Below the pieces are notes generated by a model. The model was not told the origin of the DNA and made no database searches. It saw only the letters and a program-made list of their open reading frames with translations. This document shows positions 1,906 through 17,855 of a DNA stretch of 20,000 bases, piece after piece. A program made the position numbers and the translations under genes. Within the stretch, counting starts at the first letter, position 1. Each line of letters starts with the position of its first letter. The stretch is from an uncultured virus (IMG/VR IMGVR_UViG_3300042402_002237) (lineage: Duplodnaviria > Heunggongvirae > Uroviricota > Caudoviricetes): IMG/VR virus record IMGVR_UViG_3300042402_002237, one strand, 5' to 3'.

Positions 1906-4653
1906 TTATGCTCCTGTGGTGGGTTTTGGTTGTAGTGCTGCCTGTACTGCCTGTTTAGCCATTTCGGCGTCAGTTAAAAACTGCTGTTTTTCAATCTCGA
2001 TACCATGCTGACGGATATCTTTCTCTGCCTCGTTTACTGCCTGGATACCAAGCATTGCCTGCTCTTGGGCGAGCGCCATCTCTTGGTTTGTTAGTTGCAA
2101 CTGCGCCTGCATAGCAGCCACCCGCTCGCGCGAGGAGTTGTTCATGCTGTTAATTGCGATGTTGGTGGAGTTCTTCTGGTTATCCAGCTCGGTTTGTACC
2201 TCGTATTTGCTCTGGAGTTCCAGTACTTTGCGCTGCAATTCGGCGATCTTAAGCTCGTAATCTTGCTGGGCCTTTGACTGCTCCATCTGCATTTTAAGCT
2301 GTGACTCTTGCTGTTTGCGCTGGGTCTCTGCCATCTGGGTCTTGAGAATAACCTGAGCCGTTGGGTCCTGGGCCGCAACTTTTTCCATCTGGGCCTGTTG
2401 TGCCTGCTGAACTTTAGCCGCCAGCTCTTGTATCTGGCCAATGTATGGCTGTAATGTTGTCTGCGCGTCTTGTCCAACCATCTGCGAAGCTAACGCCAAC
2501 GCCTGTTGAGATTCTAAATCTAATGGCTTCTCTTGGTTTAACTCTAACGTGTCCCGGCCACCTTGAGCCTGTGCAACGTATGCCCTCATCGATTGCAGGT
2601 AGTGCAGCGTTAAGTGTTGTTTAATGTGTTCTAACGCCAACGGTGCGTATGACGGCCCAATTACAGGGTTGCCGCCGTAGGCTGGGTTCGCAGCGTATTC
2701 TAAGTGAATCTTAATGTGGCTGATGTGATCTTGGTCGGGGTATGCCGCCGCTGGTCTGCCCATTGTCATCGAAACGTTTTCCAACGCTGGGTTTGACTCT
2801 TTCGCGCCCAATGGGTTTGGTAATATCTCGTCAATGTTAGGCACCTTGAGCTGGTGTAATACCCTGCGATACGCTGCCCGAATGTCAAACATTCCAGGTG
2901 GCGCTGATGTTGCCATCTGCAAGATAGCCTGGTTCTGAGCTAGACGTTGCGTCTCGGAGAAAATGTTGGGGTCAGATACTGGACGTACGTCGCTGTTGTA
3001 TGCAAAGTCACGTACACGAATTTCTTCGCCGGACTGGTTGTCCATCTCTTCCAAGTACCAGTGATTGATACGGGAGATAATTGCCAGCGATTTAGCTTGG
3101 CTGCGGTGTAGTCGTGCGTGAATGCTGGAGAATACCTTAGCGCCCTGCTCGATGAGAGCCTGGGCCGTACCAACCGGCATGTTGTTGTTTGCCTCACCAA
3201 TTTTTTCTTCTGCGGTGGTGACAACGCCTTTAGCCGCATCAGTTAACCAGCCAAGTAAGTTAAACAGTACGCTGGACGGTTGATTAAACGGCATTGGCAT
3301 CGCAATCTTGCGAACATCGTCAACGCCAGGTGCTCCTTCAATTTCTACTACTTGCGTAGGTTCGATTCGATCGCTTTGGCCACCAATTCGTCCACCCTTG
3401 AGCTTAAGTAGCGTTTGGGAATTATTAATATGCGCCGCGTCAAGGAGAGCGCGTAGAGCACCAGTGAGAGCAGCGCTAAGGCCGCCAATAAGATGGGGGA
3501 GACCAATAGCATAAGCGCCACGCCAAGGGATAAATTTAAACTCGACATACCAGTCCAGTTTTTCAAACTTCTCATCATTTGCTTCCCAGTTACGATACAG
3601 ACCCAAGACTTTACTTGTGGTCTCATCAATCATTAAAATGTAAGGGGCGCGTTGTCCCTTAGTTTTGTCGTCTTCATCCAAACGCATGAAGCAGGTAATC
3701 TCATAAACACGACGTAATCCGTCAATGTTTTTAGAAGGCATGTCTTTGCCTTCGATCTTGTTGTTTGCCTTTTCAGATTGCGTCTGATCGTTTAGCGGAG
3801 CATCGGAGGTGTACTCACTGTCGATGTCAATGTAGATACCGGCTTCAACGCGCTGCAAAAATGTGTCTTCGGTAATGTCTTGTACTTCGGTTACACGTTG
3901 CGCTGTGTAGAAGTTAGTCGACGCGTATGGTAACAAGATGTTATCAATCGCTACCCACTCGCAGATTGGTCGCTTTTGTTCTTCATCCCAGCGCCACTTA
4001 AGGAACTGTGATCCACCTAGTGGCAACTGAGTGAGCAACTGCTCCATCTCGTCGCGATACTCTGGCACCTGCTCGGTTAGCTGCCAGTTAAGGAAGTTAA
4101 CCTTACGATCTGCTGTCTCTTCTTTTATTCGGTCTGCTTCGCCCTTGATGTTGGACTTAACTAAACCATCGGGTGGAAGTAATTCCTTAGCCGTTGACGC
4201 AGCAAAGTCAACGCAGGCCTCTGCCATAACTGGGTGCACCACCTTGGAAGCACCGTCAAACGTCGCCCCTCCCGGTGCATCTTTTCCAAGCCCAGTTCTA
4301 CGCAATCCTTCTTCATACTGTTTATCTCGTTGTGTGCGCGACTCTTTGTCGGCGTCAATTAAATCCAAGTACTCCGTTGCGAGGGCCTGTAATGTTCCCT
4401 CATCAAACGACTCTGCCAGGTTCTCGTAGAACTCTGGATTCTTACGTGGACTTTGTTTTTCTTGGTAGTTGACAACAACCGATCCGTCTTCTAGTTCAAC
4501 TATTTCTTCTTCAACGTCGCCCGGTTCTAATCCCAGCGCGTCTTCGTAATAGTCCATCTCGGCATCTTGCGCCATGGCCTCTTGAATGTTTTCTTCGGTT
4601 TCAAGGCCCGGCAAATTTGCACCAGACTGAATAGGTAGTATTGGATTTGCCAT
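1906..4653 (-). CDS. Portal protein with long C-terminal coiled-coil extension
   Basis: 915 aa, two genes downstream of TerL; portal-like segments (VHPVMAEACVDF, LPLGGSQFLK, YAIGLPHLIG, GTAQALIEQG) and a Gln/Ala-rich helical tail resembling a P22-type barrel. Confidence 0.82.
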   Translation of the reverse strand: MANPILPIQSGANLPGLETEENIQEAMAQDAEMDYYEDALGLEPGDVEEEIVELEDGSVVVNYQEKQSPRKNPEFYENLAESFDEGTLQALATEYLDLIDADKESRTQRDKQYEEGLRRTGLGKDAPGGATFDGASKVVHPVMAEACVDFAASTAKELLPPDGLVKSNIKGEADRIKEETADRKVNFLNWQLTEQVPEYRDEMEQLLTQLPLGGSQFLKWRWDEEQKRPICEWVAIDNILLPYASTNFYTAQRVTEVQDITEDTFLQRVEAGIYIDIDSEYTSDAPLNDQTQSEKANNKIEGKDMPSKNIDGLRRVYEITCFMRLDEDDKTKGQRAPYILMIDETTSKVLGLYRNWEANDEKFEKLDWYVEFKFIPWRGAYAIGLPHLIGGLSAALTGALRALLDAAHINNSQTLLKLKGGRIGGQSDRIEPTQVVEIEGAPGVDDVRKIAMPMPFNQPSSVLFNLLGWLTDAAKGVVTTAEEKIGEANNNMPVGTAQALIEQGAKVFSSIHARLHRSQAKSLAIISRINHWYLEEMDNQSGEEIRVRDFAYNSDVRPVSDPNIFSETQRLAQNQAILQMATSAPPGMFDIRAAYRRVLHQLKVPNIDEILPNPLGAKESNPALENVSMTMGRPAAAYPDQDHISHIKIHLEYAANPAYGGNPVIGPSYAPLALEHIKQHLTLHYLQSMRAYVAQAQGGRDTLELNQEKPLDLESQQALALASQMVGQDAQTTLQPYIGQIQELAAKVQQAQQAQMEKVAAQDPTAQVILKTQMAETQRKQQESQLKMQMEQSKAQQDYELKIAELQRKVLELQSKYEVQTELDNQKNSTNIAINSMNNSSRERVAAMQAQLQLTNQEMALAQEQAMLGIQAVNEAEKDIRQHGIEIEKQQFLTDAEMAKQAVQAALQPKPTTGA

Positions 4654-5231: not shown

Positions 5232-5263
5232 ACTAATGCACAAATCCAGGGGTATCCGCCCTA
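5232..5263 (-). promoter_or_regulatory. Putative phage-sigma promoter TAGGGCGGAT-N13-TGCATTAGT (copy 2)
   Basis: Exact match to both boxes of copy 1; overlaps the TerL stop codon and faces the 5204 gene and portal. Confidence 0.75.
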
Positions 5264-6706
5264 CTGGGCGTAGGGGTTGGCAAATCGCTTGCTTAGGTCG
5301 TCGTCCACGTAACTATAGTCTCGAGCCGGTAGCGGGTCGAGCTGGATCCATCCAGAATCACGTAGAACGCGCAACGCTTGCGAGAGGGAGTCGACGTAGT
5401 CGTCGTGTCCACCAGCCTCTGGAAATGAACATACTTGACGCAGAAAACGTTTTGCCCAGTCTGCATATTCTCCTTTGCGTTGGGGTTCCTCTGGTATCCA
5501 GACTTTGCCCTTAGACACCAGCGGCGCGACAATGTTTAACCGTTGTACCTTATCGGCGCGTCCCGGGTTGTATCCCCTGACAGGCACACCAGCTCCCTGG
5601 AGCTCCTGGATCAGCGAAATACCCGCCGACTTATCTTCCATGAGGATCAGGTCCGCCTTTCGGCCCTTACCAAAGTCATTATCGGCGCCGTAAACGACCT
5701 CCTTAAAGTCGTTGATTACCTTCCTGCGTAACTCGGGGTAGGACAGGTGCTCGTCCCAAGCGTCCAGTAATATGATCGCTGTACCAGCGTCTTGTTGTTC
5801 AAACACGCCCCAGATGGTGCAGGCGGTTGGGTCGTTCATTGTTTTCTCAGAAGTCGCCGGGTCATACGACGCGATGACATACTCCAGTGTCGGAGTTGGC
5901 TTGTTGGCTGGCCAGAGCTTAAACTGTTTGCGTTTGATGATACCTGACTGTTCTGGGTCAAGGATCTCGCCATAGATCTCTTGTCTTCCAATGTCAGTTC
6001 CGTCATACGTTTCAAGCTGTTTGAAAAAAGTCTCTGAAAGGTTTGCTCGGTTGTCGTAGGACGACGCGTTTGATACGTATACATCCCCACCTACTTTCCC
6101 CTCGTTTAAATCTACAATTAATTCTTTTGGCTTGGGTGTGGTGGTAATAATCTGCTGCACTCGAGGGATGCGTGGGTCCCGTAGACGGAGGGTAAACTGT
6201 ACTCCATCGTAGGCATCGTCGATGTAATCAAATGCACACAGCTCGTCAAACCACGCCCCGTGATATTGTTTACCTCGGTAGCGCTCAGGCTCGGAGGCCG
6301 GGATCCCCTGTATAAGAGATCCATTTGTAAGGGTGATTTCAAACAGGGACTTGTTGTAGTCTCGAATGAGTGACGGGGGAATGATATTGAGAAGTCCAGA
6401 GTCCCCCTCGAAACAAGTTGCACGTATATCGTTTGAGGTGGGAGCGGTGACGAGCCAGCGGGTGTTGTCATACATCCAAGCCCGAATACCAATCCAGTGG
6501 CTAGCAGTGTGCGTTTTACCCGATCCACGACCGGCAAGCATAAGAAACGTGTCATATTCGCCATCCTCTGGCTCCCGTTGGTGTGGTAGCGCCTGTAGGT
6601 GCCACTTGACCTGCCAGATGGCAGCCTCAAGCTGTTCCTTAGGCCAGTGCTTGTTGCTATCTGCGAACTTTTTTAATACAAGCTCTTGTTTTGATGTTAA
6701 CGACAT
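5261..6706 (-). CDS. terL: Terminase large subunit
   Basis: Walker A AGRGSGKT, Walker B AWFDE, TTTP coupling motif, RNase H-like nuclease residues (YDPA, NDPTA, HDDYVDS). Confidence 0.95.
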   Translation of the reverse strand: MSLTSKQELVLKKFADSNKHWPKEQLEAAIWQVKWHLQALPHQREPEDGEYDTFLMLAGRGSGKTHTASHWIGIRAWMYDNTRWLVTAPTSNDIRATCFEGDSGLLNIIPPSLIRDYNKSLFEITLTNGSLIQGIPASEPERYRGKQYHGAWFDELCAFDYIDDAYDGVQFTLRLRDPRIPRVQQIITTTPKPKELIVDLNEGKVGGDVYVSNASSYDNRANLSETFFKQLETYDGTDIGRQEIYGEILDPEQSGIIKRKQFKLWPANKPTPTLEYVIASYDPATSEKTMNDPTACTIWGVFEQQDAGTAIILLDAWDEHLSYPELRRKVINDFKEVVYGADNDFGKGRKADLILMEDKSAGISLIQELQGAGVPVRGYNPGRADKVQRLNIVAPLVSKGKVWIPEEPQRKGEYADWAKRFLRQVCSFPEAGGHDDYVDSLSQALRVLRDSGWIQLDPLPARDYSYVDDDLSKRFANPYAQ

Positions 6707-7689
6707 GAAATAAAACCCTCTCCTACGAGATAGCTGTTATCTGGCCCGTCTGTTTCGATGTGAACACAGGTCTGCGGCTGGATCTTTGTAATTTTTTCGA
6801 TGTACCTACGCGCCTGGTGTACTTTTATCGGTTTAGATACCTGATTAGGTACCAGTTTTAACCTGGTTTTAAAAAATAGCGAGTAAATTTTCTTTTGTTC
6901 TGTAAAACTGAGCCGGGTCTTGCCACCCAGGGACTCAACTAGGCCCTGAACTGCCAGCGCCGTGCCATAATGTGTGGTCGAGAACCTAAACTGGTCTCTG
7001 TTTGTCGAATATTGCTGGGCCTTTGCAAACAAAATGCCACGTAGCAGCTCAATTCGCTGGTCTTTGTCCGCCAGCAGGTAGTTTGCCGGTAATTTTGTCG
7101 GAATATCTGGGGCCAACTGTGACTCTATGGTCGGCGATATGGTAAATTGGCGCCAGCCATTTTTCAAAGTCTTGCGAATCTTGACCTTGTACCCAAAATC
7201 TTTGAGTTGCTGCTCAACTTCTTCGGTTGTATCGGGGTTTGTTGTAAAATATCCGCTGGGTTTGCGGTTTATAAACCAGAACCCAAACACAAACGGCGGG
7301 ACTGGTAGGGTCTGGTGGGGTAGCTCGATGGGTTTTGTGGTAGGGATCGAATAGATCCGGTGGTTGTCTTCCCGCTTATGTCCCCGCTCTAACAAATTTT
7401 CCACGTTTATGGGCCGTAGTGGCCGCCTAAATGGGTGGTAGCCTTTGTACGTCATGGCACGCAGCCGGTACTTAAAGTTTTCCACCAAAAATTCCAGGCG
7501 TTTGTCCCCAGAAATTGTAAGGTAATCGTTTAACGTAACCTCGTAGCAGTCCTCTGAGAAGTATTCCTGGACCAGCTTTACCTTTACGGGTTTGCCGTTT
7601 TGGTCAAACAGGTAGTCACCCGGCTGGATTTTGTTTGCCGGTTTCCAGTAGTCCAAGGTCAGGACTTTTTGATTTGCTAGTATTGCCAT
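6697..7689 (-). CDS. Free-standing degenerate intein-like protein (Hint + LAGLIDADG-like)
   Basis: Hint N-terminal pattern (AILANQKVLT...KIQPGDYLFDQNGKPVKV), C-terminal block CVHIETDGPDNSYLVGEGFI, LAGLIDADG-like helices PPFVFGFWF and QRIELLRGILF. No exteins and no terminal His-Asn. Confidence 0.8.
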   Translation of the reverse strand: MAILANQKVLTLDYWKPANKIQPGDYLFDQNGKPVKVKLVQEYFSEDCYEVTLNDYLTISGDKRLEFLVENFKYRLRAMTYKGYHPFRRPLRPINVENLLERGHKREDNHRIYSIPTTKPIELPHQTLPVPPFVFGFWFINRKPSGYFTTNPDTTEEVEQQLKDFGYKVKIRKTLKNGWRQFTISPTIESQLAPDIPTKLPANYLLADKDQRIELLRGILFAKAQQYSTNRDQFRFSTTHYGTALAVQGLVESLGGKTRLSFTEQKKIYSLFFKTRLKLVPNQVSKPIKVHQARRYIEKITKIQPQTCVHIETDGPDNSYLVGEGFISCR

Positions 7690-7957
7690 AAAAATTATCT
7701 AGGACCCACAGGTCCAGCCAACGCCCTAACGGCGCCCTAATTTTGTTTTGGATCTCCACGGGCAGTCGGTTAATATCCATGTGCTCGCAGACCTTTAAAC
7801 GAAACTCGATGTACTTAGCCGTCTCTTTGTCCAATATTTCAACTGGCGCGTCGGCAGAGTCAAAGTGATACAGGTTACAGACCAGGACACGGAACCCCCT
7901 AAGTCTTCCATTAGAATCTTCTAGGGCACCCTGGATCTGGTAAACATATTCGTTCAT
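7616..7957 (-). CDS. Hypothetical protein, first gene of the leftward operon
   Basis: 113-aa ORF, ATG 6 nt after the TGCATTAGT box; overlaps the next gene by 74 nt. Confidence 0.65.
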   Translation of the reverse strand: MNEYVYQIQGALEDSNGRLRGFRVLVCNLYHFDSADAPVEILDKETAKYIEFRLKVCEHMDINRLPVEIQNKIRAPLGRWLDLWVLDNFYGNTSKSKSPDLGLLETGKQNPAG

Positions 7958-7963
7958 ACATCT

Positions 7964-7995
7964 ACTAATGCAAACATTTGATTATTATGGCCCCA
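7964..7995 (-). promoter_or_regulatory. Putative phage-sigma promoter (copy 3, TGGGGCCATA-N13-TGCATTAGT)
   Basis: Exact TGCATTAGT box; upstream box keeps T-GGGC in the same register. Confidence 0.65.
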
Positions 7996-8004
7996 CCTCA
8001 ATGC

Positions 8005-8021
8005 GATAGTTTTTAACTATC
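8005..8021. promoter_or_regulatory. OxyR/LysR-type palindrome GATAGTT-N3-AACTATC
   Basis: Contains ATAG-N7-CTAT, matching the OxyR unit ATAGntnnnanCTAT. Confidence 0.5.
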
Positions 8022-8039
8022 AATTTTGCTCGCAGAAGC

Positions 8040-8196
8040 GCGGCACTTGCGGCACTTGCGGGGGTATATTCCAGGTTTCCCTCTATCTTTATTTTTTATT
8101 TTTTAAAAATAATAAAAATAGTAAAGTAACCCCCGCAACCCCCGCATCCCCGTCAAACATCAAGGACTTAGCGCATTTCATTTCACATTGTGAAAT
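8040..8196. repeat. Origin-like element copy A: inverted GC-rich iterons around a 63-bp AT-rich core, plus IHF-like site and 15-bp palindrome
   Basis: GCGGCACTT x2 + GCGGGGGT (8040-8065), AT core 8066-8128, ACCCCCGCAACCCCCGC (8129-8145), CATCAAGGACTTA (8158-8170), TTTCACATTGTGAAA (8181-8195). Homologous to 15299-15495. Confidence 0.8.
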
Positions 8197-8338
8197 TTAC
8201 TATACAAATTTTACAAAAAAAATTTTAGAAAGTCGACTTTTGTGGGTAATGGAACGAGCTTGGGGTCTGTGGGGCCCCCAGCCGGCCGCCCCGCCACGGG
8301 ACCCAAATTGGCATACCGCATTATGAAAAAGCCCCCCG

Positions 8339-8395
8339 TGCACCAAAATGGTGCACAAATTCACCGCCTTGGTGCGTCTGCACCAACATGGTGCA
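8339..8395. promoter_or_regulatory. Three tandem NtrC-type boxes
   Basis: TGCACCAAAATGGTGCA (8339-8355), TTCACCGCCTTGGTGCG (8360-8376, degenerate), TGCACCAACATGGTGCA (8379-8395); NtrC consensus TGCACCA-N3-TGGTGCA. Confidence 0.8.
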
Positions 8396-8408
8396 CAGCT
8401 CGAGCGCT

Positions 8409-8566
8409 TCGATGTTAGTGAGCGCTCACTAACATCGAGGCACCGCGCCCCCCTGCCAAGTAGCGCATTGGTTAGTGAGTACTAACTAACATGGCCGAGC
8501 GCCCACTCTGTCCCCATTATCAGCACTCGATGTGCCTGAGTGCTAAGTTAGTAAGTGCTAACTAAC
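8409..8566. repeat. Three copies of 20-bp palindrome GTTAGTRAGYRCTMACTAAC (operator-like)
   Basis: 8414-8433 (within a perfect 30-bp palindrome 8409-8438), 8471-8490, 8547-8566. Confidence 0.85.
8520..8546. promoter_or_regulatory. CIRCE element (HrcA operator)
   Basis: TCAGCACTC-N9-GAGTGCTAA versus consensus TTAGCACTC-N9-GAGTGCTAA: 17/18 with the exact spacer. Confidence 0.85.
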
Positions 8567-8764
8567 ATGGCGCCCTGTTAGGGTAAATACCTATTGACGG
8601 ATTGGACGCGTTTTAAGGGGGCTAGGAGGCGCGCAGGGCAGAGATGATGGTTAGGTATCAACTCATTGACGATCGTTGAGCCATCGAGCTGGGGTGCCAC
8701 CACAAAGGCTTTGCGGGCGCGAGGGCGGATAGGTGGGGTGGGCGAGTGATCAGGTAATTTGAGT

Positions 8765-8790
8765 TACCACAATATCCCACAATCCCCCAC
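8765..8790 (-). promoter_or_regulatory. MraZ-type direct repeats
   Basis: Minus strand GTGGGG-GATT-GTGGGA-TATT-GTGGTA: three GTGG units at an exact 10-bp period, as in the mraZ/dcw promoter operator. Confidence 0.65.
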
Positions 8791-8817
8791 AGTTTAGTCA
8801 GGTATTTTATTTAGTTG

Positions 8818-8848
8818 TTTACATTTAATTCCAAAGGTCTGTACAATA
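8818..8848 (+). promoter_or_regulatory. Sigma70-like early promoter 1
   Basis: TTTACA-N18-TACAAT with AT-rich upstream DNA; shares AAAGGTCTGTAYAATA with the promoter at 13178. Confidence 0.7.
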
Positions 8849-8960
8849 GAGGGTATCGGAAGTGCAGTGGCTAATCCACTCAAACGCAAACCCAACCGCG
8901 ATCTATAAGGGGGAGCCGGCAGAACCGGTGCTGTTATCCAACACAGCGTATGCTAACAGA

Positions 8961-9008
8961 TAGTAATGCTCAGAGCGCATTGTAACCAGTGCGCTCGAGG
9001 CAGTACTA
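8961..9008 (+). other. Long bulged hairpin in early leader (RNase III-site-like)
   Basis: TAGTA...GAGCGCATTG-TAAC-CAGTGCGCTC...TACTA, directly before a CA-rich spacer and AGGAG RBS. Confidence 0.55.
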
Positions 9009-9031
9009 ACCAAACAACAGGAGATTACACC

Positions 9032-9283
9032 ATGGCAAAATTCACAGTCGTTAAGTTAATCGATGAGAAAAAAGTAGTACCTGCAAGATTGTTACCTGAG
9101 CAGTGTGGTGGCAACATGACATGGCAGATTGATGACAAAGACGTATTGGAGTACAACCCCAAGACTAAACAGTTTAGCCTTGAGGTTTATGAGTTCCAAA
9201 ATGATGACTACGAGCTAGTCAACACCTTGGGGCACGATGACGCGTATCAGATAGCATTAGATGAGGGTATCTGCTACGAGTAA
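9032..9283 (+). CDS. Early hypothetical protein (start MAKFTVV at 9032)
   Basis: ACAGGAG RBS upstream of ATG 9032; 83 aa. Confidence 0.75.
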   Translation: MAKFTVVKLIDEKKVVPARLLPEQCGGNMTWQIDDKDVLEYNPKTKQFSLEVYEFQNDDYELVNTLGHDDAYQIALDEGICYE

Positions 9284-9285
9284 CA

Positions 9286-9337
9286 GGTCGAAACAGCCTA
9301 ACGGCTGTCTGCACGTTAGGCGTGCACTGATGAGACC
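9286..9337 (+). ncRNA. Type II hammerhead ribozyme 1
   Basis: GGTC-GAAA-[CAGCC TAAC GGCTG]-TC-[TGCACG TTAGG CGTGCA]-CTGATGA-GACC: full core, stems I and III closed, stem II open; GUC triplet, predicted cut after C9309. Confidence 0.93.
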
Positions 9338-9358
9338 ACACACAACACAGGAGAGCCT

Positions 9359-9757
9359 ATGAACTTTCAATACATCTGCAATAACCCACGCACATTTGAC
9401 TTAGAGATCAACGATTGCGTGGTTCGGGCGCTATCGCTCGCATTCAATCGGGCGTACCCCGAGGTGCACGAGGTATGTGCCAAGGCAGGGCGCAAGCCAC
9501 GCCGTGGCATGATGCGTGCCCAAACCGACAAGGCGATCCAAGTACTGAGCGCCAACAAAGACGCCAAGCTCGAGCGATACAGTCGGGGCAACCGGTGCAC
9601 ACTGGCAACCTTTGCCAAGCACAACCCCAAGGGTAACTTTATCGTGATCAAGAGGGGACACGCCGTGGCGCTGATCGATGGCGTGTACCACGATAACAGC
9701 AACACCGAGACAGGCCTGCCACGCTCGATCGTGCAGGCGTGTTTTAGGACTAAGTAA
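9359..9757 (+). CDS. Putative papain-fold (C39-like) cysteine peptidase
   Basis: NDCVVRAL (Cys at helix start), GHAVALIDG (His on strand) and a downstream YHD Asp form a Cys-His-Asp pattern; AGGAG RBS. Confidence 0.5.
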   Translation: MNFQYICNNPRTFDLEINDCVVRALSLAFNRAYPEVHEVCAKAGRKPRRGMMRAQTDKAIQVLSANKDAKLERYSRGNRCTLATFAKHNPKGNFIVIKRGHAVALIDGVYHDNSNTETGLPRSIVQACFRTK

Positions 9758-9759
9758 CA

Positions 9760-9809
9760 GGTCGAAACGCCGTGAGGCGTATGCACGTTAGGCGTGCACT
9801 GACGAGACC
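9760..9809 (+). ncRNA. Type II hammerhead ribozyme 2
   Basis: GGTC-GAAA-[CGCC GTGA GGCG]-TA-[TGCACG TTAGG CGTGCA]-CTGACGA-GACC; GUA triplet, predicted cut after A9781. Stem III differs from copy 1 but stays paired. Confidence 0.92.
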
Positions 9810-9829
9810 AAACAACGGAGAGTAATAAC

Positions 9830-10210
9830 ATGGCATACATGAACCAAGACAAAAAGGCAGTAATCAAGGCAAACCTAGACAAGGCGCTCAAACCACTGGG
9901 CATTAAGTTTAGCCTGCGTGTAAGTAATCACATGGCGATTACTTGCACAATCAAGAGCGCGCCATTTAATATGCTCGCAGATCGTAAGCAAGCGCTGAGC
10001 GCATTCCAACAGGATCATGCGCAGGTCAACCCATACTGGTTCCAAGACCATTACGTGGGCAAAACACGTGACGTACTGGCTAAGGTCATGGAGGCAATGC
10101 AAAGCGCCGGATACTACGATCGCAGTGACGCCATGGTGGACTACTTCGACACGGCGTACTACTACCATGTCAACATCGGCGACTACGACAAACCATTTCA
10201 GGTAAAATAA
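9830..10210 (+). CDS. Early phage protein, LPD29-like (tentative)
   Basis: LK..GIKFSLR and D.SDAMVDYFD..YY motifs recalled from phage polyvalent-protein-associated domains; GGAG RBS. Confidence 0.45.
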   Translation: MAYMNQDKKAVIKANLDKALKPLGIKFSLRVSNHMAITCTIKSAPFNMLADRKQALSAFQQDHAQVNPYWFQDHYVGKTRDVLAKVMEAMQSAGYYDRSDAMVDYFDTAYYYHVNIGDYDKPFQVK

Positions 10211-10212
10211 AA

Positions 10213-10239
10213 TCAGTGGCTCGATCTATGAGCCACTGA
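10213..10239 (-). terminator. 10-bp perfect hairpin; intrinsic-terminator-like on the minus strand
   Basis: TCAGTGGCTC-N7-GAGCCACTGA; a T-tract (TTTTATTTT) follows only on the minus strand. Confidence 0.5.
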
Positions 10240-10272
10240 CACAGTACAATGATGACATCAACAGGAGATAAT

Positions 10273-10491
10273 ATGAGCTACAATACAGACTGCGCTGAGA
10301 TTTGGAACCCAACGGGCGCGATTAATTTTGAGGTGCGCATGGATCCACTGGGCGCCGGTAAGTACGACGTGTGGGCAGTGCAAGGCGGTTATGCACGCAA
10401 GGTCACATCAAACTGGTTTGCCGATCGTAAAGATGCAGAGGCATTATTTTTATCTAAAGATTATTCTCAATGGATGGAGGAACTACAATGA
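10273..10491 (+). CDS. Early hypothetical protein
   Basis: ACAGGAG RBS before ATG 10273. Confidence 0.75.
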   Translation: MSYNTDCAEIWNPTGAINFEVRMDPLGAGKYDVWAVQGGYARKVTSNWFADRKDAEALFLSKDYSQWMEELQ

Positions 10492-13911: not shown

Positions 13912-14078
13912 AAATCATCGGCGCATTTATTGTAATGATCACTGGGTTTTGGTTTGCCCAAGGGATGTTTGATCTGTATACGATCTTGTGGTTTGTATTT
14001 GGGCTAGCAATGCTCATACCAACAGAAGTTTATAAAACATTATGGGAGCTATATGAAAGAAAACGACATTCTAAGTGA
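13908..14078 (+). CDS. Small two-helix membrane protein (likely TTG start)
   Basis: GGAGAGG RBS, TTGA overlap, two hydrophobic stretches and a basic tail. Confidence 0.6.
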   Translation: MKIIGAFIVMITGFWFAQGMFDLYTILWFVFGLAMLIPTEVYKTLWELYERKRHSK

Positions 14079-14625
14079 CTACCTCAAGTCGCTGTACGGC
14101 ATCGAGCCGTTGACAGTGGAGGAAGAGCACGAGCTCGCCAAGAGGATTCAAGCAGGCGACGAGGGTGCACTTGAGCAGTTGATCAAGCACAACCTGCGCT
14201 TTGTGGTCTACGTCGTCCGTAAGATGACGGCGTGGAACCACGGCAAGGTGCCAGTGGAGGACATGGTCGCCATGGGTAACGAGGCATTGTTTACGGCGGG
14301 TCGTAGGTGGGTGCCTAAGAACAACGCACGCTTTGCCACATACGCCAAGACGTTTATTGAGAAGGGCGTACGGCGTGACCTAGACAACACGGCAAACATC
14401 ATACGCCTGCCAATCAATATCATGGAGCAGGTAAAGAAGTTAAACTATACCGAGCGCTCGCTATCCCAAGTACTGGGGCGTAAGCCCAAGACGCACGAGA
14501 TCGCCACGCTCATGGGCGTCACAGAGAGCAAGGTGCACCAGTTGCAGGGATACATCGCACGTGAGCCAGTATCGCTCGACCACATCAACCAAGAGAAGTT
14601 TACCGAGGAGCATTTAGATGATTGA
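14053..14625 (+). CDS. RNA polymerase sigma-70-family factor (regions 1.2, 2, 3; no region 4)
   Basis: DYLKSL...PLTVEEEHELAKRIQAGD (1.2), LIKHNLRFVV and RFATYA (2), IRLP and LGRKP..EIA (3); ends shortly after PVSLD. Confidence 0.92.
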   Translation: MKENDILSDYLKSLYGIEPLTVEEEHELAKRIQAGDEGALEQLIKHNLRFVVYVVRKMTAWNHGKVPVEDMVAMGNEALFTAGRRWVPKNNARFATYAKTFIEKGVRRDLDNTANIIRLPINIMEQVKKLNYTERSLSQVLGRKPKTHEIATLMGVTESKVHQLQGYIAREPVSLDHINQEKFTEEHLDD

Positions 14626-15542: not shown

Positions 15543-17855
15543 ATGACAGATAAACCAATTTGCCTCCCCGTACAGTTCGCCACGATACCACTGGAATTGA
15601 AACGCATTCCAAGGTGGGTACTGTGGCGCCTTGTCGAGGTAGGCGACGAGAACAACAAGCGGTGGAGTAAACTGCCAACGCAGACAAGCGGTCAACCTGC
15701 CTCGTCAACCAACCCAGCGACGTGGACAGACTTTCCGTCAGTCCAACACGCCTACGAGGAAGACCCCGAGAAGTTTGCCGGTATCGGGTTCGTATTCACC
15801 CAAACCGACAACCTCATCGGCGTAGACTTGGACGACTGCTTTGACCACGTCACGGCGCGATTCACAAATGCTGCACTGCAACATATCTCCGACGAGCTCG
15901 AGGGCTACCACGAGGTCTCACCCAGTGGCACCGGCATTAAGATATTTACCCGAGCCGACCTAGCGCACGCCCACGTCGACCACAGCCAAGGGCTAGAGAT
16001 CTACCCACAGGGGAGGTTCTTTACAGTGACGGGGCACTACCTAGGTGGATCGATACCAACCGAGGCGCAAGACCTATCGGCGTTCATACCCGAGCGTGCA
16101 CTGCACGTGACTGGGGATGCGTTCGCTGATTATGTACCACCGGTCGAGGGCTACGACCTGCACCGAGTTGAGACCGAGCTCTTAACTAAGCTCGACCCCG
16201 ACTGCGGGTACACGGACTGGATGGGCGTGGGCTTTGCGCTCTTCCACCAGTTCGGCGGGGACGTAGAGGCCTGCGAGTTATGGGATCGTTGGAGCTCGCA
16301 GTCCGGCAAGTACGCATCGACCGGCATGAATAGTTGCGAGTCAAAGTGGCGCACGTTCAAGAGTGGTGGCGCGACTCTACGGAGCATTATCTTTAAGGTC
16401 AATCAGAAAGAGAGGGCGGATGCGCTCGCTCGGGGCGAGATAGTACTCGACTCGGGCGCGATGAATCACGCACGTACCTTTCTCGACGCGCTCTACTCTA
16501 GCGAGGAAGGCTATCGCCTAGTGCACTATGCGGAAGACTTTTTTATACACGCGGGCACGCACTACGAGATCATCGAGGAGGCAACGATACGCTCAAAGCT
16601 CTACGCGTTCCTTGATAAGTGTAAGAAACCGGCTAAGGGTGGTGCCTTGGTACCGTTTAACCCGTCACCAGCGAGCGTCTCGGCCTCTATGGATGCGATT
16701 AAGTCGATTGTGCACCTACCTAATCATGCAAACACCAAGCCACCGATTTGGTTTGAAGAGTATCAGGCAAATAAGCCCGACGCGTCGAAGTTGATCAGCG
16801 TCAAGAATGGCCTCTTTCACCTAGAGGACAAGATCTTATTGCCACACTCGCTCGGGTTTTTTACACAGCACTCGCTACCGTTTCAGTACGACCAAGGCGC
16901 GACCTGCCCGCAGTGGGACGCGTTCTTACAGTCGATATGGGAAGACGATCAGGAGTCGATCGACGCACTGCAGGAGATCTTCGGCTACATCCTGTCGGGA
17001 GACACGAGACAGCAGAAGTTTTTTAACATAATTGGTCCGCGACGTAGCGGTAAGGGCACGATCAACAAGGTGCTCGTATCTCTATTCGGACAGCACAACA
17101 CTGTCGCGCCACAATTGGAGGAGCTCTGTGATACATTTGGCTTACAACCATGGCTTGGAAAACCCCTTGCCTCATTTACTGACGCTCGTGCACCTGAGCG
17201 TAATCGTAGCGCTGTCGTTAGCCAGTTGTTGCGTATTGTGGGTGGTGATACTGTCACCGTTAATCGCAAGAATAAGGAGGCATGGTCGGGCTATCTGCCA
17301 ACGCGTATCATCGTATACTCGAACGAGGCGTTGCAATTAACCGAGAACAGTAACGCGCTCACCGGTCGTATGTTGGTGCTACGCATGACCAAGTCATTCT
17401 ACGACAACGAAGACACCGACCTGTTTAACAAGCTATCCGGCGAGTTGGCCGGTATCTTTAACTGGGCCATGGCCGGACTTGATCGCAGACTGTCACGTGG
17501 CGGTCACTTTAGACAACCACAGTCGGGCAGACAGTTGTTGCTGTTGATGGAGCAGTTGGGCAACCCACTGAACTCGTTCGTCGAGGACACGTTCGTGTTT
17601 GACCCAACGTCGCAGGTTAAGAAGGACGACGTATTCCTGTGTTGGAAGAGGTGGGCGGTTAGACGTAGTTTGCCACCCGGCTCGGAGATGTCGTTCAAGC
17701 GCAGGTTCTTAGCGGCGACACAAGAGAAACGCATCGAGACAGGCGAGAGCCGAGCAGATGGTGAGCGCGTGCCAATTTACCTTGGCATACGATTTAACAC
17801 ATCGGCCGGCGAGTACTTAAAATCAGTCGAAACATTTGAAACGGAAGGATATTGA
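15543..17855 (+). CDS. Primase-polymerase (AEP) / PriCT-2 / D5-P4-type SF3 helicase fusion
   Basis: GVDLDDC and EVSPSGTGIKIF (prim-pol; K where His is common), YTDWMGVGFAL...WDRWS (PriCT-2), VKNGLF (D5_N), Walker A GPRRSGKGT, GGD.V...RK and SNE (SF3 motifs). Confidence 0.92.
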   Translation: MTDKPICLPVQFATIPLELKRIPRWVLWRLVEVGDENNKRWSKLPTQTSGQPASSTNPATWTDFPSVQHAYEEDPEKFAGIGFVFTQTDNLIGVDLDDCFDHVTARFTNAALQHISDELEGYHEVSPSGTGIKIFTRADLAHAHVDHSQGLEIYPQGRFFTVTGHYLGGSIPTEAQDLSAFIPERALHVTGDAFADYVPPVEGYDLHRVETELLTKLDPDCGYTDWMGVGFALFHQFGGDVEACELWDRWSSQSGKYASTGMNSCESKWRTFKSGGATLRSIIFKVNQKERADALARGEIVLDSGAMNHARTFLDALYSSEEGYRLVHYAEDFFIHAGTHYEIIEEATIRSKLYAFLDKCKKPAKGGALVPFNPSPASVSASMDAIKSIVHLPNHANTKPPIWFEEYQANKPDASKLISVKNGLFHLEDKILLPHSLGFFTQHSLPFQYDQGATCPQWDAFLQSIWEDDQESIDALQEIFGYILSGDTRQQKFFNIIGPRRSGKGTINKVLVSLFGQHNTVAPQLEELCDTFGLQPWLGKPLASFTDARAPERNRSAVVSQLLRIVGGDTVTVNRKNKEAWSGYLPTRIIVYSNEALQLTENSNALTGRMLVLRMTKSFYDNEDTDLFNKLSGELAGIFNWAMAGLDRRLSRGGHFRQPQSGRQLLLLMEQLGNPLNSFVEDTFVFDPTSQVKKDDVFLCWKRWAVRRSLPPGSEMSFKRRFLAATQEKRIETGESRADGERVPIYLGIRFNTSAGEYLKSVETFETEGY

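What the first reader, a model, noticed from the sequence alone, without database searches (positions are those of the whole stretch)
9281..9809. Two intact type II hammerhead ribozymes punctuate the early operon
Seen: near-identical ~55-nt elements follow the TAA stops at 9283 and 9757 and precede a CA-rich spacer plus RBS. Each has the full core (GAAA, UH, CUGANGA), stem II GGTC/GACC and stem I TGCACG/CGTGCA. Stem III differs (CAGCC/GGCTG vs CGCC/GGCG) but stays paired, i.e. structure is conserved despite sequence change. The upstream TAAC, which contains the stop codon, could pair with GTTA at the stem I loop as a pseudoknot. Established: this is the hammerhead consensus, and GUC/GUA are efficient triplets. 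Inference: the phage processes its early polycistronic mRNA without proteins, giving downstream genes hairpin-capped 5'-OH ends that resist 5'-monophosphate-dependent decay.
Basis: partly seen in the sequence, partly recalled or inferred. Interest (0 to 1): 0.85.

Follow-up and report, generated by a model that had tools for sequence, protein, structure and literature searches.

The report
Two hammerhead ribozymes between phage genes
Two small self-cutting RNA motifs (type II hammerhead ribozymes) really do sit between the first genes of an uncultured lake phage's rightward operon and probably cut the long message into single-gene pieces, but this arrangement has been known in phages since 2011.

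Summary
Type II hammerheads lie at 9286-9337 and 9760-9809 (+ strand), with predicted cuts after C9309 and A9781. Each starts 2 nt after a TAA stop and is followed by an A/C-only spacer, GGAG and ATG. Rfam's own thresholds miss both (31.5 and 19.9 bits; cut-off 37). A covariance model built only from 68 other viral-contig copies scores them at 73.5 and 65.4 bits (E about 1e-21 and 1e-18), and nothing else in the window exceeds 9.4 bits. In that alignment 98.2% of cells pair and 286 carry compensatory changes.

The proposed TAAC:GTTA pseudoknot is not supported. Flank-to-loop complementarity equals the shuffled control, and a close relative keeps TAACA with no ribozyme there.

Close relatives show natural gain or loss. 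One lacks exactly the 57 nt of HH2 plus its spacer. All 7 near-full-length homologs of the upstream gene keep a hammerhead in the HH1 slot. None of 80 loci with homologs of the gene after HH2 has one directly upstream.

Protein-free mRNA processing is plausible, but it is the hypothesis Perreault et al. published in 2011 and is still untested here. This scan has also noted the same arrangement on other DNA (29 notes). Verdict: a clean new member of a known kind, of low to moderate interest.

The parts
8818..8847 (+). Promoter-like site (TTTACA-18-TACAAT) upstream of the rightward operon. It is a candidate only.
   Evidence: 10 of 12 consensus matches. However, the region has 5 promoter-like sites against 3.6 +/- 1.9 in shuffles, so this is not above chance.
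8966..9283 (+). ORF A, 105 aa, no known family. Its TAA stop (9281-9283) lies 2 nt before HH1.
   Evidence: ORF; no PHROG, Pfam or NCBIfam hit; 7 near-full-length homologs at 78-94% aa identity in viral contigs; all 7 are directly followed by a hammerhead.
9286..9337 (+). HH1, a type II hammerhead ribozyme. Stem II 9286-9289/9334-9337; G12A13A14 9290-9292; stem III 9293-9308; cleavage after C9309; stem I 9310-9326; core CUGAUGA 9327-9333.
   Evidence: Rfam RF02276 31.5 bits, E 2.2e-4, below the gathering score of 37; MFE fold is the three-way junction; R1 73.5 bits, E 3.6e-21.
9338..9358 (+). A/C-only spacer ACACACAACACA (9338-9349), SD GGAG (9350-9353) and 5 nt before the ATG.
   Evidence: unpaired in the centroid fold of the cleaved 3' product. 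Family-wide, the first 10 nt after stem II are 43% A against a 26% background.
9359..9757 (+). ORF B, 132 aa, phrog_3754 (unknown function). It lies between the two ribozymes; the two cuts would release a 472-nt RNA (9310-9781).
   Evidence: phrog_3754, E 4e-22; three viral contigs with 92% identical homologs.
9760..9809 (+). HH2, a type II hammerhead ribozyme. Stem II 9760-9763/9806-9809; G12A13A14 9764-9766; stem III 9767-9780; cleavage after A9781; stem I 9782-9798; core CUGACGA 9799-9805.
   Evidence: Rfam 19.9 bits, E 0.031; MFE fold; R1 65.4 bits, E 1.2e-18. HH2 plus the AAACAAC spacer (9760-9816, 57 nt) is exactly absent in relative L125.
9810..9829 (+). Spacer AAACAAC (9810-9816), SD GGAG (9817-9820) and 9 nt before the ATG.
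   Evidence: unpaired in the fold of the cleaved product.
9830..10210 (+). ORF C, 126 aa, phrog_10415 (unknown function), with a weak sub-threshold LPD29 match.
   Evidence: E 5.6e-29. LPD29 21.5 bits, below the cut-off of 27; 132 relatives in viral contigs; none of the 80 kept loci has an R1 hammerhead immediately upstream.

Best explanation
Both elements are functional type II hammerhead ribozymes, transcribed as part of the rightward (+) polycistronic mRNA of an uncultured freshwater tailed phage.

Each folds as soon as its roughly 50 nt are made and cuts itself, after C9309 (GUC) and after A9781 (GUA). This separates ORF A, ORF B and ORF C into individual RNAs. In the type II layout the cut falls between two self-contained hairpins, and only the 4-bp stem II holds the halves together. 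The upstream product therefore ends in the stem III hairpin plus one nucleotide carrying a 2',3'-cyclic phosphate. The downstream product starts flush with the stem I hairpin and carries a 5'-OH. It continues with an unstructured A/C-rich spacer, the SD and the start codon.

The likely benefit is that each cistron gets defined, hairpin-capped ends and a ribosome-binding-site context that does not depend on the gene upstream. That acts as an insulator, which would be useful in a region where gene cassettes are swapped between related phages.

Shown here: motif integrity, strand, conservation with covariation, placement, and natural presence/absence among relatives.

Inferred: cleavage in vivo and any effect on stability or translation.

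The elements belong to a large phage subclass with these features: stem II GGUC/GACC; an invariant A just 5' of stem II; a 6-bp stem I closed by U.G with a 3-nt N-A-N loop. This subclass shows no loop I pseudoknot.
For: Motif and fold.

Independent model: R1 was built from 68 external sequences only, with the window and its close relatives L125-L127 left out. It scores the two elements 73.5 and 65.4 bits, on the + strand only.

Covariation in the 68-sequence alignment: 98.2% of 1156 cells pair, against 27-47% when partners are slid by 1-3 columns and 70.8% in shuffles (0 of 500 reach the observed value). 286 cells have changes on both sides, against 89.5 in shuffles. 11 of the 13 pairs not fixed by my search pattern show compensatory changes.

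These gave 146 hits and 133 unique cores, of which 126 have at least 4 contiguous bp in both stem I and stem III, with 83 distinct stem I and 76 distinct stem III sequences.

Placement is a family trait. In 92 of 123 external members an upstream ORF's stop codon ends 0-6 nt before stem II or includes its first G; the window's offset, stop + 2 nt, is the commonest (28). In 101 of 123, an SD, a start codon and an ORF of at least 30 codons follow within 60 nt, with a mode of 19 nt (window: 21 and 20).

Strand: all 26 model hits in 90 loci oriented by their genes are on the gene strand.

Conservation of the slot: 7 of 7 ORF A homologs (78-94% aa identity) carry a hammerhead right after the stop, with compensatory stem I changes (UGCACG/CGUGCA vs CGCACG/CGUGCG) and different stem III sequences.

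Product ends: folds of the predicted products keep stem I flush at the new 5' end and stem III 1 nt from the new 3' end.

Precedent: Perreault et al. 2011 saw cleavage of clustered prophage hammerheads during in vitro transcription of roughly 2-kb native fragments, and in vivo in E. coli (PMC3088659, passages). Three predicted type II hammerheads near phage-like genes were found cleaved in Desulfovibrio vulgaris RNA (PMC8782182, abstract and passages).
Against: There is no direct evidence of transcription or cleavage for this phage. Only assembled contigs were available, they came from relatives (88-97% alike), and contigs cannot show RNA ends.

Rfam's curated threshold is not reached.

The tertiary contact that gives natural hammerheads fast cleavage at physiological Mg2+ is not identified. 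Activity at low Mg2+ is therefore assumed, not shown.

HH2 is dispensable. L125 has ORF B and ORF C adjacent without it, and 0 of 80 ORF C homolog loci have an R1 hammerhead directly upstream. Any benefit is therefore modest or depends on context.

The promoter call is at chance level, and 'early' is inferred only from gene content.

Stem II and the core are invariant in my family sample by construction, because the search pattern fixed them.
Confidence: 0.6

Rival explanations
1. The hammerheads are mainly module-boundary or semi-selfish elements. Near-identical 50-nt copies at gene junctions spread within and between related phages and give homology for swapping gene cassettes. Under this view RNA cleavage is tolerated or secondary, and is not selected for gene expression.
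For: Copy number and position vary among close relatives: 0 to 3 copies between ORF A and the conserved genes downstream, in 13 related loci. There is an exact 57-nt presence/absence of HH2 plus its spacer. HH2 plus ORF C are missing together in L126 and L127. The block of similarity between the window and L125 resumes at 9276, 10 nt before HH1. The closest copies of HH2 (94% and 93% over 54 nt, in L136 and L129) sit in loci where tblastn found no ORF C homolog. Copies within one genome share stem I, while stem III sequences reassort between copies.
Against: Selection clearly acts on the RNA. The catalytic core is intact, the stems are kept by compensatory changes across 83 stem I and 76 stem III variants, and the elements always lie on the sense strand (26 of 26). 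DNA homology alone would need none of this. The HH1 slot after ORF A is conserved in 7 of 7 homologs. No transposition machinery or target duplication is visible; there is only a GG shared at both edges of the 57-nt indel.
Confidence: 0.15
2. The pair of ribozymes excises the 472-nt ORF B segment (9310-9781) with 5'-OH and 2',3'-cyclic-phosphate ends. A host RtcB-type ligase, or the ribozyme's own reverse reaction, then joins those ends into a circular or spliced RNA.
For: The geometry fits: two same-strand ribozymes flank one gene, and they have identical stem I and stem II, so a hybrid ribozyme would re-form across the junction. Perreault et al. raised this possibility (PMC3088659).
Against: The same authors looked for spliced or circular products and found none (data not shown in their paper). 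Relatives have one, two or three ribozymes in different arrangements, and ORF B is flanked on only one side in L125 and on neither side in L127. No joints were seen in the laid contigs, though this is weak because the contigs came from relatives.
Confidence: 0.04
3. Cleavage is a regulated switch coupled to translation. Stem II begins 2 nt after the stop codon, so a ribosome terminating on ORF A or ORF B would cover or unwind the 5' strand of stem II and the GAAA. How much RNA is cut would then depend on how heavily the upstream gene is translated.
For: Stops are packed tightly against stem II across the family: 92 of 123 end within 6 nt of stem II or include its first G, and 22 of those include that G. 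A subset (13 of 123) has an alternative hairpin that sequesters the core and covaries with N7, which shows that competing folds exist in this family.
Against: Tight packing is what any compact phage genome would show. L125 shows the same stop-CA-GGAG junction with no ribozyme. The window's two copies lack the alternative hairpin. There is no experimental support.
Confidence: 0.1
4. The elements are chance matches or decayed, inactive relics.
For: Rfam gathering thresholds are not reached. The reverse strand folds about as stably.
Against: Every core position is canonical. The family-specific model gives E about 1e-21 and 1e-18. Orthologous slots are conserved with compensatory changes.
Confidence: 0.03

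Closest known systems
Type II hammerhead ribozymes clustered between genes of prophages and phages (Perreault et al. 2011, PMC3088659; Rfam RF02276)
   Same: The same catalytic core, the same permuted topology (stem II open, stems I and III closed by loops), the same placement between small genes of phage origin with several copies close together, and the same proposed role of cutting long phage transcripts into gene-length mRNAs (passages read).
   Different: The published consensus has a short stem II, often 2 bp, and a pseudoknot between loop I and the 3' tail in 'a majority' of members. Here stem II is 4 bp (GGUC/GACC), loop I is a conserved G-U-N-A-N-G-C, and no pseudoknot with either flank is detectable. 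Rfam's model treats GACC as an insertion and scores both copies below its threshold. It reaches threshold for only 1 of 27 such elements in 20 other loci. I did not open Perreault's Dataset S1, which may already contain this subclass.
Type II hammerheads found cleaved in vivo in Desulfovibrio vulgaris by cyPhyRNA-seq (PMC8782182)
   Same: Predicted type II hammerheads next to hypothetical and phage-like genes, shown to cleave in cellular RNA (abstract and passages).
   Different: Those are chromosomal or prophage loci of a cultured bacterium and have experimental proof. Here the source is an uncultured lake phage and no RNA-end data exist.
RiboJ-type synthetic ribozyme insulators
   Same: What it works like: a self-cleaving hammerhead placed just upstream of a ribosome-binding site removes the variable upstream RNA, so that the downstream gene's expression does not depend on what precedes it.
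   Different: RiboJ is engineered from a satellite-RNA hammerhead of another topology and adds a hairpin after the ribozyme. The phage elements are natural, type II, and followed by an unstructured A/C-rich spacer. The insulator role is only an inference here.

Membership tests
Hammerhead ribozyme (catalytic class) | Core C3-U4-G5-A6-N7-G8-A9 | tested here: met
   CUGAUGA at 9327-9333 and CUGACGA at 9799-9805. N7 is free in the consensus; in the family it is U 76, C 39, G 6, A 5.
Hammerhead ribozyme (catalytic class) | G12-A13-A14, followed by the A15.1-U16.1 pair and a cleavage-site nucleotide H17 that is not G | tested here: met
   GAA at 9290-9292 with A9293-U9308 and C9309; GAA at 9764-9766 with A9767-U9780 and A9781.
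Hammerhead ribozyme (catalytic class) | G10.1-C11.1 pair opening stem II | tested here: met
   G9334-C9289 and G9806-C9763.
Hammerhead ribozyme (catalytic class) | Three helices around the core, maintained by compensatory changes in relatives | tested here: met
   stems I and III are 97-98% paired over 68 sequences, 11 pairs show changes on both sides, and slid controls give 27-47%. Stem II could not be tested because my search pattern fixed it.
Hammerhead ribozyme (catalytic class) | Site-specific self-cleavage giving 2',3'-cyclic phosphate and 5'-OH ends | not testable with these tools
   Only assembled contigs from relatives were available; they carry no end information.
Type II hammerhead (topology) | Stem II open-ended; stems I and III closed by loops | tested here: met
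   MFE and centroid folds of both elements, alone and with flanks; R1 alignment.
Rfam RF02276 Hammerhead_II (curated model) | Score at or above the gathering threshold of 37 bits | tested here: not met
   31.5 bits and 19.9 bits, and 0 hits at gathering. This is a property of one curated model, whose consensus has a shorter stem II, and not of the ribozyme class. The model also misses 26 of 27 sister elements.
Published type II consensus (Perreault et al. 2011) | Pseudoknot of at least 4 bp between loop I and the nucleotides just 3' of stem II (said to hold for 'a majority', so it is not obligatory) | tested here: not met
   For 3' +1..+12, 14% of members have at least 4 bp, against 12% with shuffled partners. 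The 5' flank gives 18% vs 18%. In the window the only complements lie 16-17 nt downstream, next to the start codon.

The most novel reading that the evidence does not exclude
The hammerhead plus its short A/C-rich spacer may be a discrete, transferable 'intercistronic insulator cassette' that is gained and lost precisely between a stop codon and the next Shine-Dalgarno sequence. Evidence that fits: the exact 57-nt indel at 9760-9816; 93-94% identical copies in other gene contexts; and reassorting stem I and stem III halves. On this reading the subclass would spread through phage gene-cassette regions as a natural plug-in that makes newly acquired genes independent of their upstream neighbour. 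It would dock stems I and II through the invariant A 5' of stem II and the conserved U/A of loop I, instead of through a pseudoknot.
Probability: 0.15. Interest if true: 0.6.

Novelty: new member of a known kind. Interest (0 to 1): 0.3.

Why it matters
What self-cleaving ribozymes do in bacteria and phages is still an open question (review PMC6765202). This locus does not answer it, but it offers a clean natural comparison. Closely related phages differ by exactly one ribozyme plus its spacer in front of the same gene: window vs L125, with ORF C 96% identical. That is the ideal pair for testing whether cleavage changes the stability or translation of the downstream mRNA.

There is also a practical point. 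The curated Rfam model misses this abundant phage subclass (1 of 27 detected at threshold), so routine annotation of viral metagenomes probably undercounts hammerheads.

Tried and rejected
1. Rfam at gathering thresholds over the whole window gave no hit. Only the permissive mode showed Hammerhead_II, below its threshold.

I narrowed the range.

3. No whole genome is held for this window, so genome-wide counts of ribozymes were not possible.

4. blastn of 8900-10300 against cultured-phage records found no match. tblastn with the primase found only relatives below 35% identity. Host and taxon therefore remain unknown; the DNA occurs in lake and freshwater metagenomes.

5. RNA evidence. The four runs laid were two metatranscriptomes and two runs guessed to be RNA. 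They gave only short contigs from relatives covering parts of the region. One 201-nt contig of a run whose RNA status is a guess ends 3 letters beyond 9781. Another contig bridges the HH1 site inside a relative's different hammerhead. No joints were seen and no ends can be read. I draw no conclusion on transcription or cleavage.

6. Pseudoknot with the 5' flank or the 3' tail: rejected as described.

7. Other copies in the window, or copies on the minus strand: none.

8. Naming ORFs A, B and C. PHROGs gave only families of unknown function. Pfam gave a sub-threshold LPD29 match for ORF C. NCBIfam gave nothing.

9. A split terminase. ORF 6697-7689 (-) has a weak PHROG terminase hit, but ORF 5261-6706 already holds both terminase domains. 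I do not claim a split.
Full report
**What is there.** HH1 runs from 9286 to 9337 and reads GGUC-GAA-[ACAGCC UAAC GGCUGU]-C-[UGCACGU UAG GCGUGCA]-CUGAUGA-GACC. HH2 runs from 9760 to 9809 and reads GGUC-GAA-[ACGCC GUGA GGCGU]-A-[UGCACGU UAG GCGUGCA]-CUGACGA-GACC. In hammerhead numbering these give G12A13A14, the A15.1-U16.1 pair, H17 (C9309, A9781), stem I, C3-A9, and the G10.1-C11.1 pair that opens a 4-bp stem II. Each ribozyme starts 2 nt after a TAA stop (9281-9283 for ORF 8966-9283; 9755-9757 for ORF 9359-9757). Each is followed by an A/C-only spacer, GGAG and an ATG (9359, 9830). Outside stem III the copies differ only at H17 and N7.

**Is it more than chance?** Both elements fold into the three-way junction as their minimum-free-energy and centroid structure, alone and with flanks. 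The reverse complements fold about as well, so the fold does not give the strand. Rfam found nothing at its curated thresholds. In permissive mode Hammerhead_II (RF02276) matches HH1 at 31.5 bits (E 2.2e-4) and HH2 at 19.9 bits (E 0.031), both under the gathering score of 37. The printed alignments show why: the Rfam consensus has a shorter stem II and treats GACC as an insertion.

To get an independent measure I scanned IMG/VR for GGTCGAAA-N25-55-CTGANGAGACC. These gave 146 hits and 133 unique cores. Of the unique cores, 126 have at least 4 contiguous base pairs in both stem I and stem III, with 83 distinct stem I and 76 distinct stem III sequences. Of the 7 failures, 5 have a good stem I and an interrupted stem III, and 2 (L018, L064) do not look like hammerheads.

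I aligned 68 external members with cores of 49-54 nt, out of 123 external unique members; the window and L125-L127 were left out. With the hammerhead structure written on that alignment, 98.2% of 1156 cells pair. The figure is 27-47% when partners are slid and 70.8% in shuffles. 286 cells carry changes on both sides, and 11 pairs show compensatory change. Stem II and the core are invariant there only because the search pattern fixed them.

The covariance model built from this alignment (R1) scores HH1 at 73.5 bits (E 3.6e-21) and HH2 at 65.4 bits (E 1.2e-18). The next best hit in the whole window, on both strands with filters off, is 9.4 bits. There are therefore exactly two copies, both on the + strand.

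**Context.** The window is part of a tailed phage. On the minus strand lie a large terminase (5261-6706), a portal (1906-4653) and a GroES-like gene. From 8966 a rightward operon holds many small ORFs, then a sigma-70-like factor (14053-14625) and a primase (15543-17855). No cultured phage is close. The DNA occurs in lake and freshwater metagenomes. A promoter-like site at 8818-8847 precedes ORF A, but such sites are not above chance in this region. 'Early operon' is therefore a reasonable reading of the gene content, not a demonstrated fact.

**The pseudoknot.** Neither has support in this subclass:
- Over 125 members, the share with at least 4 contiguous complementary bases is 18% for the 5' flank and 14% for the 3' tail. 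With shuffled partners it is 18% and 12%.
- GTTA loops are not associated with TAAC flanks: 2 of 15 vs 19 of 108, p = 1. Only 3 of 123 have the in-register 4-bp complement.
- Mutual information between the three loop nucleotides and 18 other positions (16 flank positions, N7 and H17) gives a lowest p of 0.028 in 54 tests.
- The relative L125 keeps ...TAACA|GGAG... at the ORF B-ORF C junction although it has no ribozyme there.

TAAC therefore belongs to the stop codon and to the usual junction of this phage group. What is conserved outside the core is an A immediately 5' of stem II (125 of 126; it was not in my pattern) and an A immediately 3' (96 of 126). Stem I has 6 bp closed by U.G, with a 3-nt loop whose middle base is A in 75 of 96. 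These positions are candidates for a non-pseudoknot tertiary contact. That is inference.

**Placement is a family trait.** In 92 of 123 external members an upstream ORF's stop codon ends 0-6 nt before stem II or includes its first G. The window's arrangement, stop + 2 nt, is the commonest (28). In 101 of 123, an SD, a start codon and an ORF of at least 30 codons follow within 60 nt, with a mode of 19 nt. The first 10 nt after stem II are 43% A and 14.5% U, against backgrounds of 26% and 21%.

**Relatives show gain and loss.** Three contigs encode ORF B at 92% identity.
- L125 and L127 each carry three hammerheads upstream of ORF B, at different positions. L126 has none in the 331 nt available.
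- L125 has ORF C (96% identical) directly after ORF B. Exactly 57 nt, window 9760-9816 (HH2 plus AAACAAC), are absent there.
- L126 and L127 lack HH2 and ORF C together.
- All 7 near-full-length ORF A homologs (78-94% aa identity) have a hammerhead right after the stop, with compensatory stem I changes and other stem III sequences.
- None of the 80 kept ORF C homolog loci (of 132 found) has an R1 hit (E up to 0.001, default filters) immediately upstream. Nine have one elsewhere in the 1.2-kb upstream flank.
- The closest copies of HH2 (94% and 93% over 54 nt, in L136 and L129) lie in loci where tblastn found no ORF C homolog.
- All 26 hits in these 90 gene-oriented loci are on the gene strand.

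The HH1 slot is therefore conserved, and HH2 is a lineage-specific gain in a hypervariable cassette region.

**Mechanism.** The best-supported reading is self-cleavage of the + strand polycistronic RNA at both sites. Because of the type II layout, the upstream product ends with the stem III hairpin plus one nucleotide, and the downstream product begins flush with the stem I hairpin. The SD stays unpaired in the centroid fold. Only the 4-bp stem II holds the halves together, so the products should part readily (inference). Terminal hairpins and a 5'-OH plausibly alter decay, and removing the upstream RNA would make the ribosome-binding-site context constant, which is an insulator effect. All of this is inference. 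The effect of a 5'-OH depends on the host's RNases (my recall), and the host is unknown. Precedent for cleavage of such clustered elements in vitro and in vivo comes from PMC3088659 (passages) and PMC8782182 (abstract and passages). My attempt to see RNA ends failed, because only contigs from relatives were available.

**Comparison with what is known.** Perreault et al. 2011 described type II hammerheads, their clustering around single genes in prophages, and the idea that they cut long phage transcripts into gene-length mRNAs. A 2019 review states that this still needs work. My literature searches found no later functional study of phage hammerheads in the held library, which lacks most subscription journals. 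Earlier notes of this scan report the same arrangement in many other genomes (29 notes).

This locus differs from the published consensus in having a 4-bp stem II and no pseudoknot. Rfam's model detects only 1 of 27 such elements in 20 loci at threshold. I did not open the supplementary alignments of the 2011 paper, so I cannot say that the subclass is unreported.

**Verdict.** This is a new member of a known kind. Its main value is the natural with/without pair for HH2, and the evidence that standard annotation misses this subclass.

Noticed in passing
L125:2155-2213, 2423-2481; L127:1891-1949, 2397-2453, 2635-2693; L128-L134 about 1497-1578: Twelve hammerheads in close relatives read CUGAUGA-U-GACC, with an extra U between A9 and G10.1: 5 of the 6 in L125/L127 and all 7 that follow ORF A homologs. 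The window's two copies are canonical. From recall, an extra nucleotide at this spot is tolerated in a viroid hammerhead. Activity was not assessed here.
   Followed up: partly
13 of 123 family members, e.g. L010, L019, L026, L028, L038, L042, L113 (immediately 3' of stem II): The 3' tail begins NUCAG and can pair with C3-N7 of the core (CUGAN). N is the Watson-Crick complement of N7 in 12 of 13 and forms G.U in one. This would be an alternative hairpin that sequesters the catalytic core. It is absent from the window's copies. An earlier scan note (e1-3485193) mentions a competing helix in another phage.
   Followed up: partly
window 10212-10240: A perfect 9-bp hairpin (11 pairs counting G.U) lies right after the ORF C stop and is conserved in L126 and L127 after ORF B. 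It looks like a terminator only on the minus strand (U-run), where no gene is nearby. On the plus strand it has no U-run and is followed by a -10-like TACAAT (TATAAT in L127).
   Followed up: partly
window 9013-9276 vs L125:1948-2912 and L127:1464-3000: The segment after a conserved roughly 1.5-2 kb block (86-88% identical) is hypervariable among relatives. Different small ORFs and 0-3 hammerheads occupy the same place; similarity resumes 10 nt before HH1.
   Followed up: partly
L028:31-95 (-): A second, classical type II hammerhead (Rfam 49.4 bits, above threshold) lies in the same viral contig as a subclass member. Both forms can therefore coexist in one phage.
   Followed up: no
window 6697-7689 (-) and 5261-6706 (-): The 330-aa ORF upstream of the large terminase has a weak PHROG match to large terminases (phrog_15, E 5e-13) but no Pfam or NCBIfam hit. 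The 481-aa ORF already holds both terminase domains. The 330-aa protein may be a divergent small terminase or an ATPase-like partner.
   Followed up: partly
window 7957-8966: A roughly 1-kb stretch between the divergent structural (minus) and rightward (plus) gene blocks has only short ORFs (58 and 45 aa). It is 86-88% conserved in L125 and L127. It includes a terminator-like hairpin at 8335-8359 (-).
   Followed up: no
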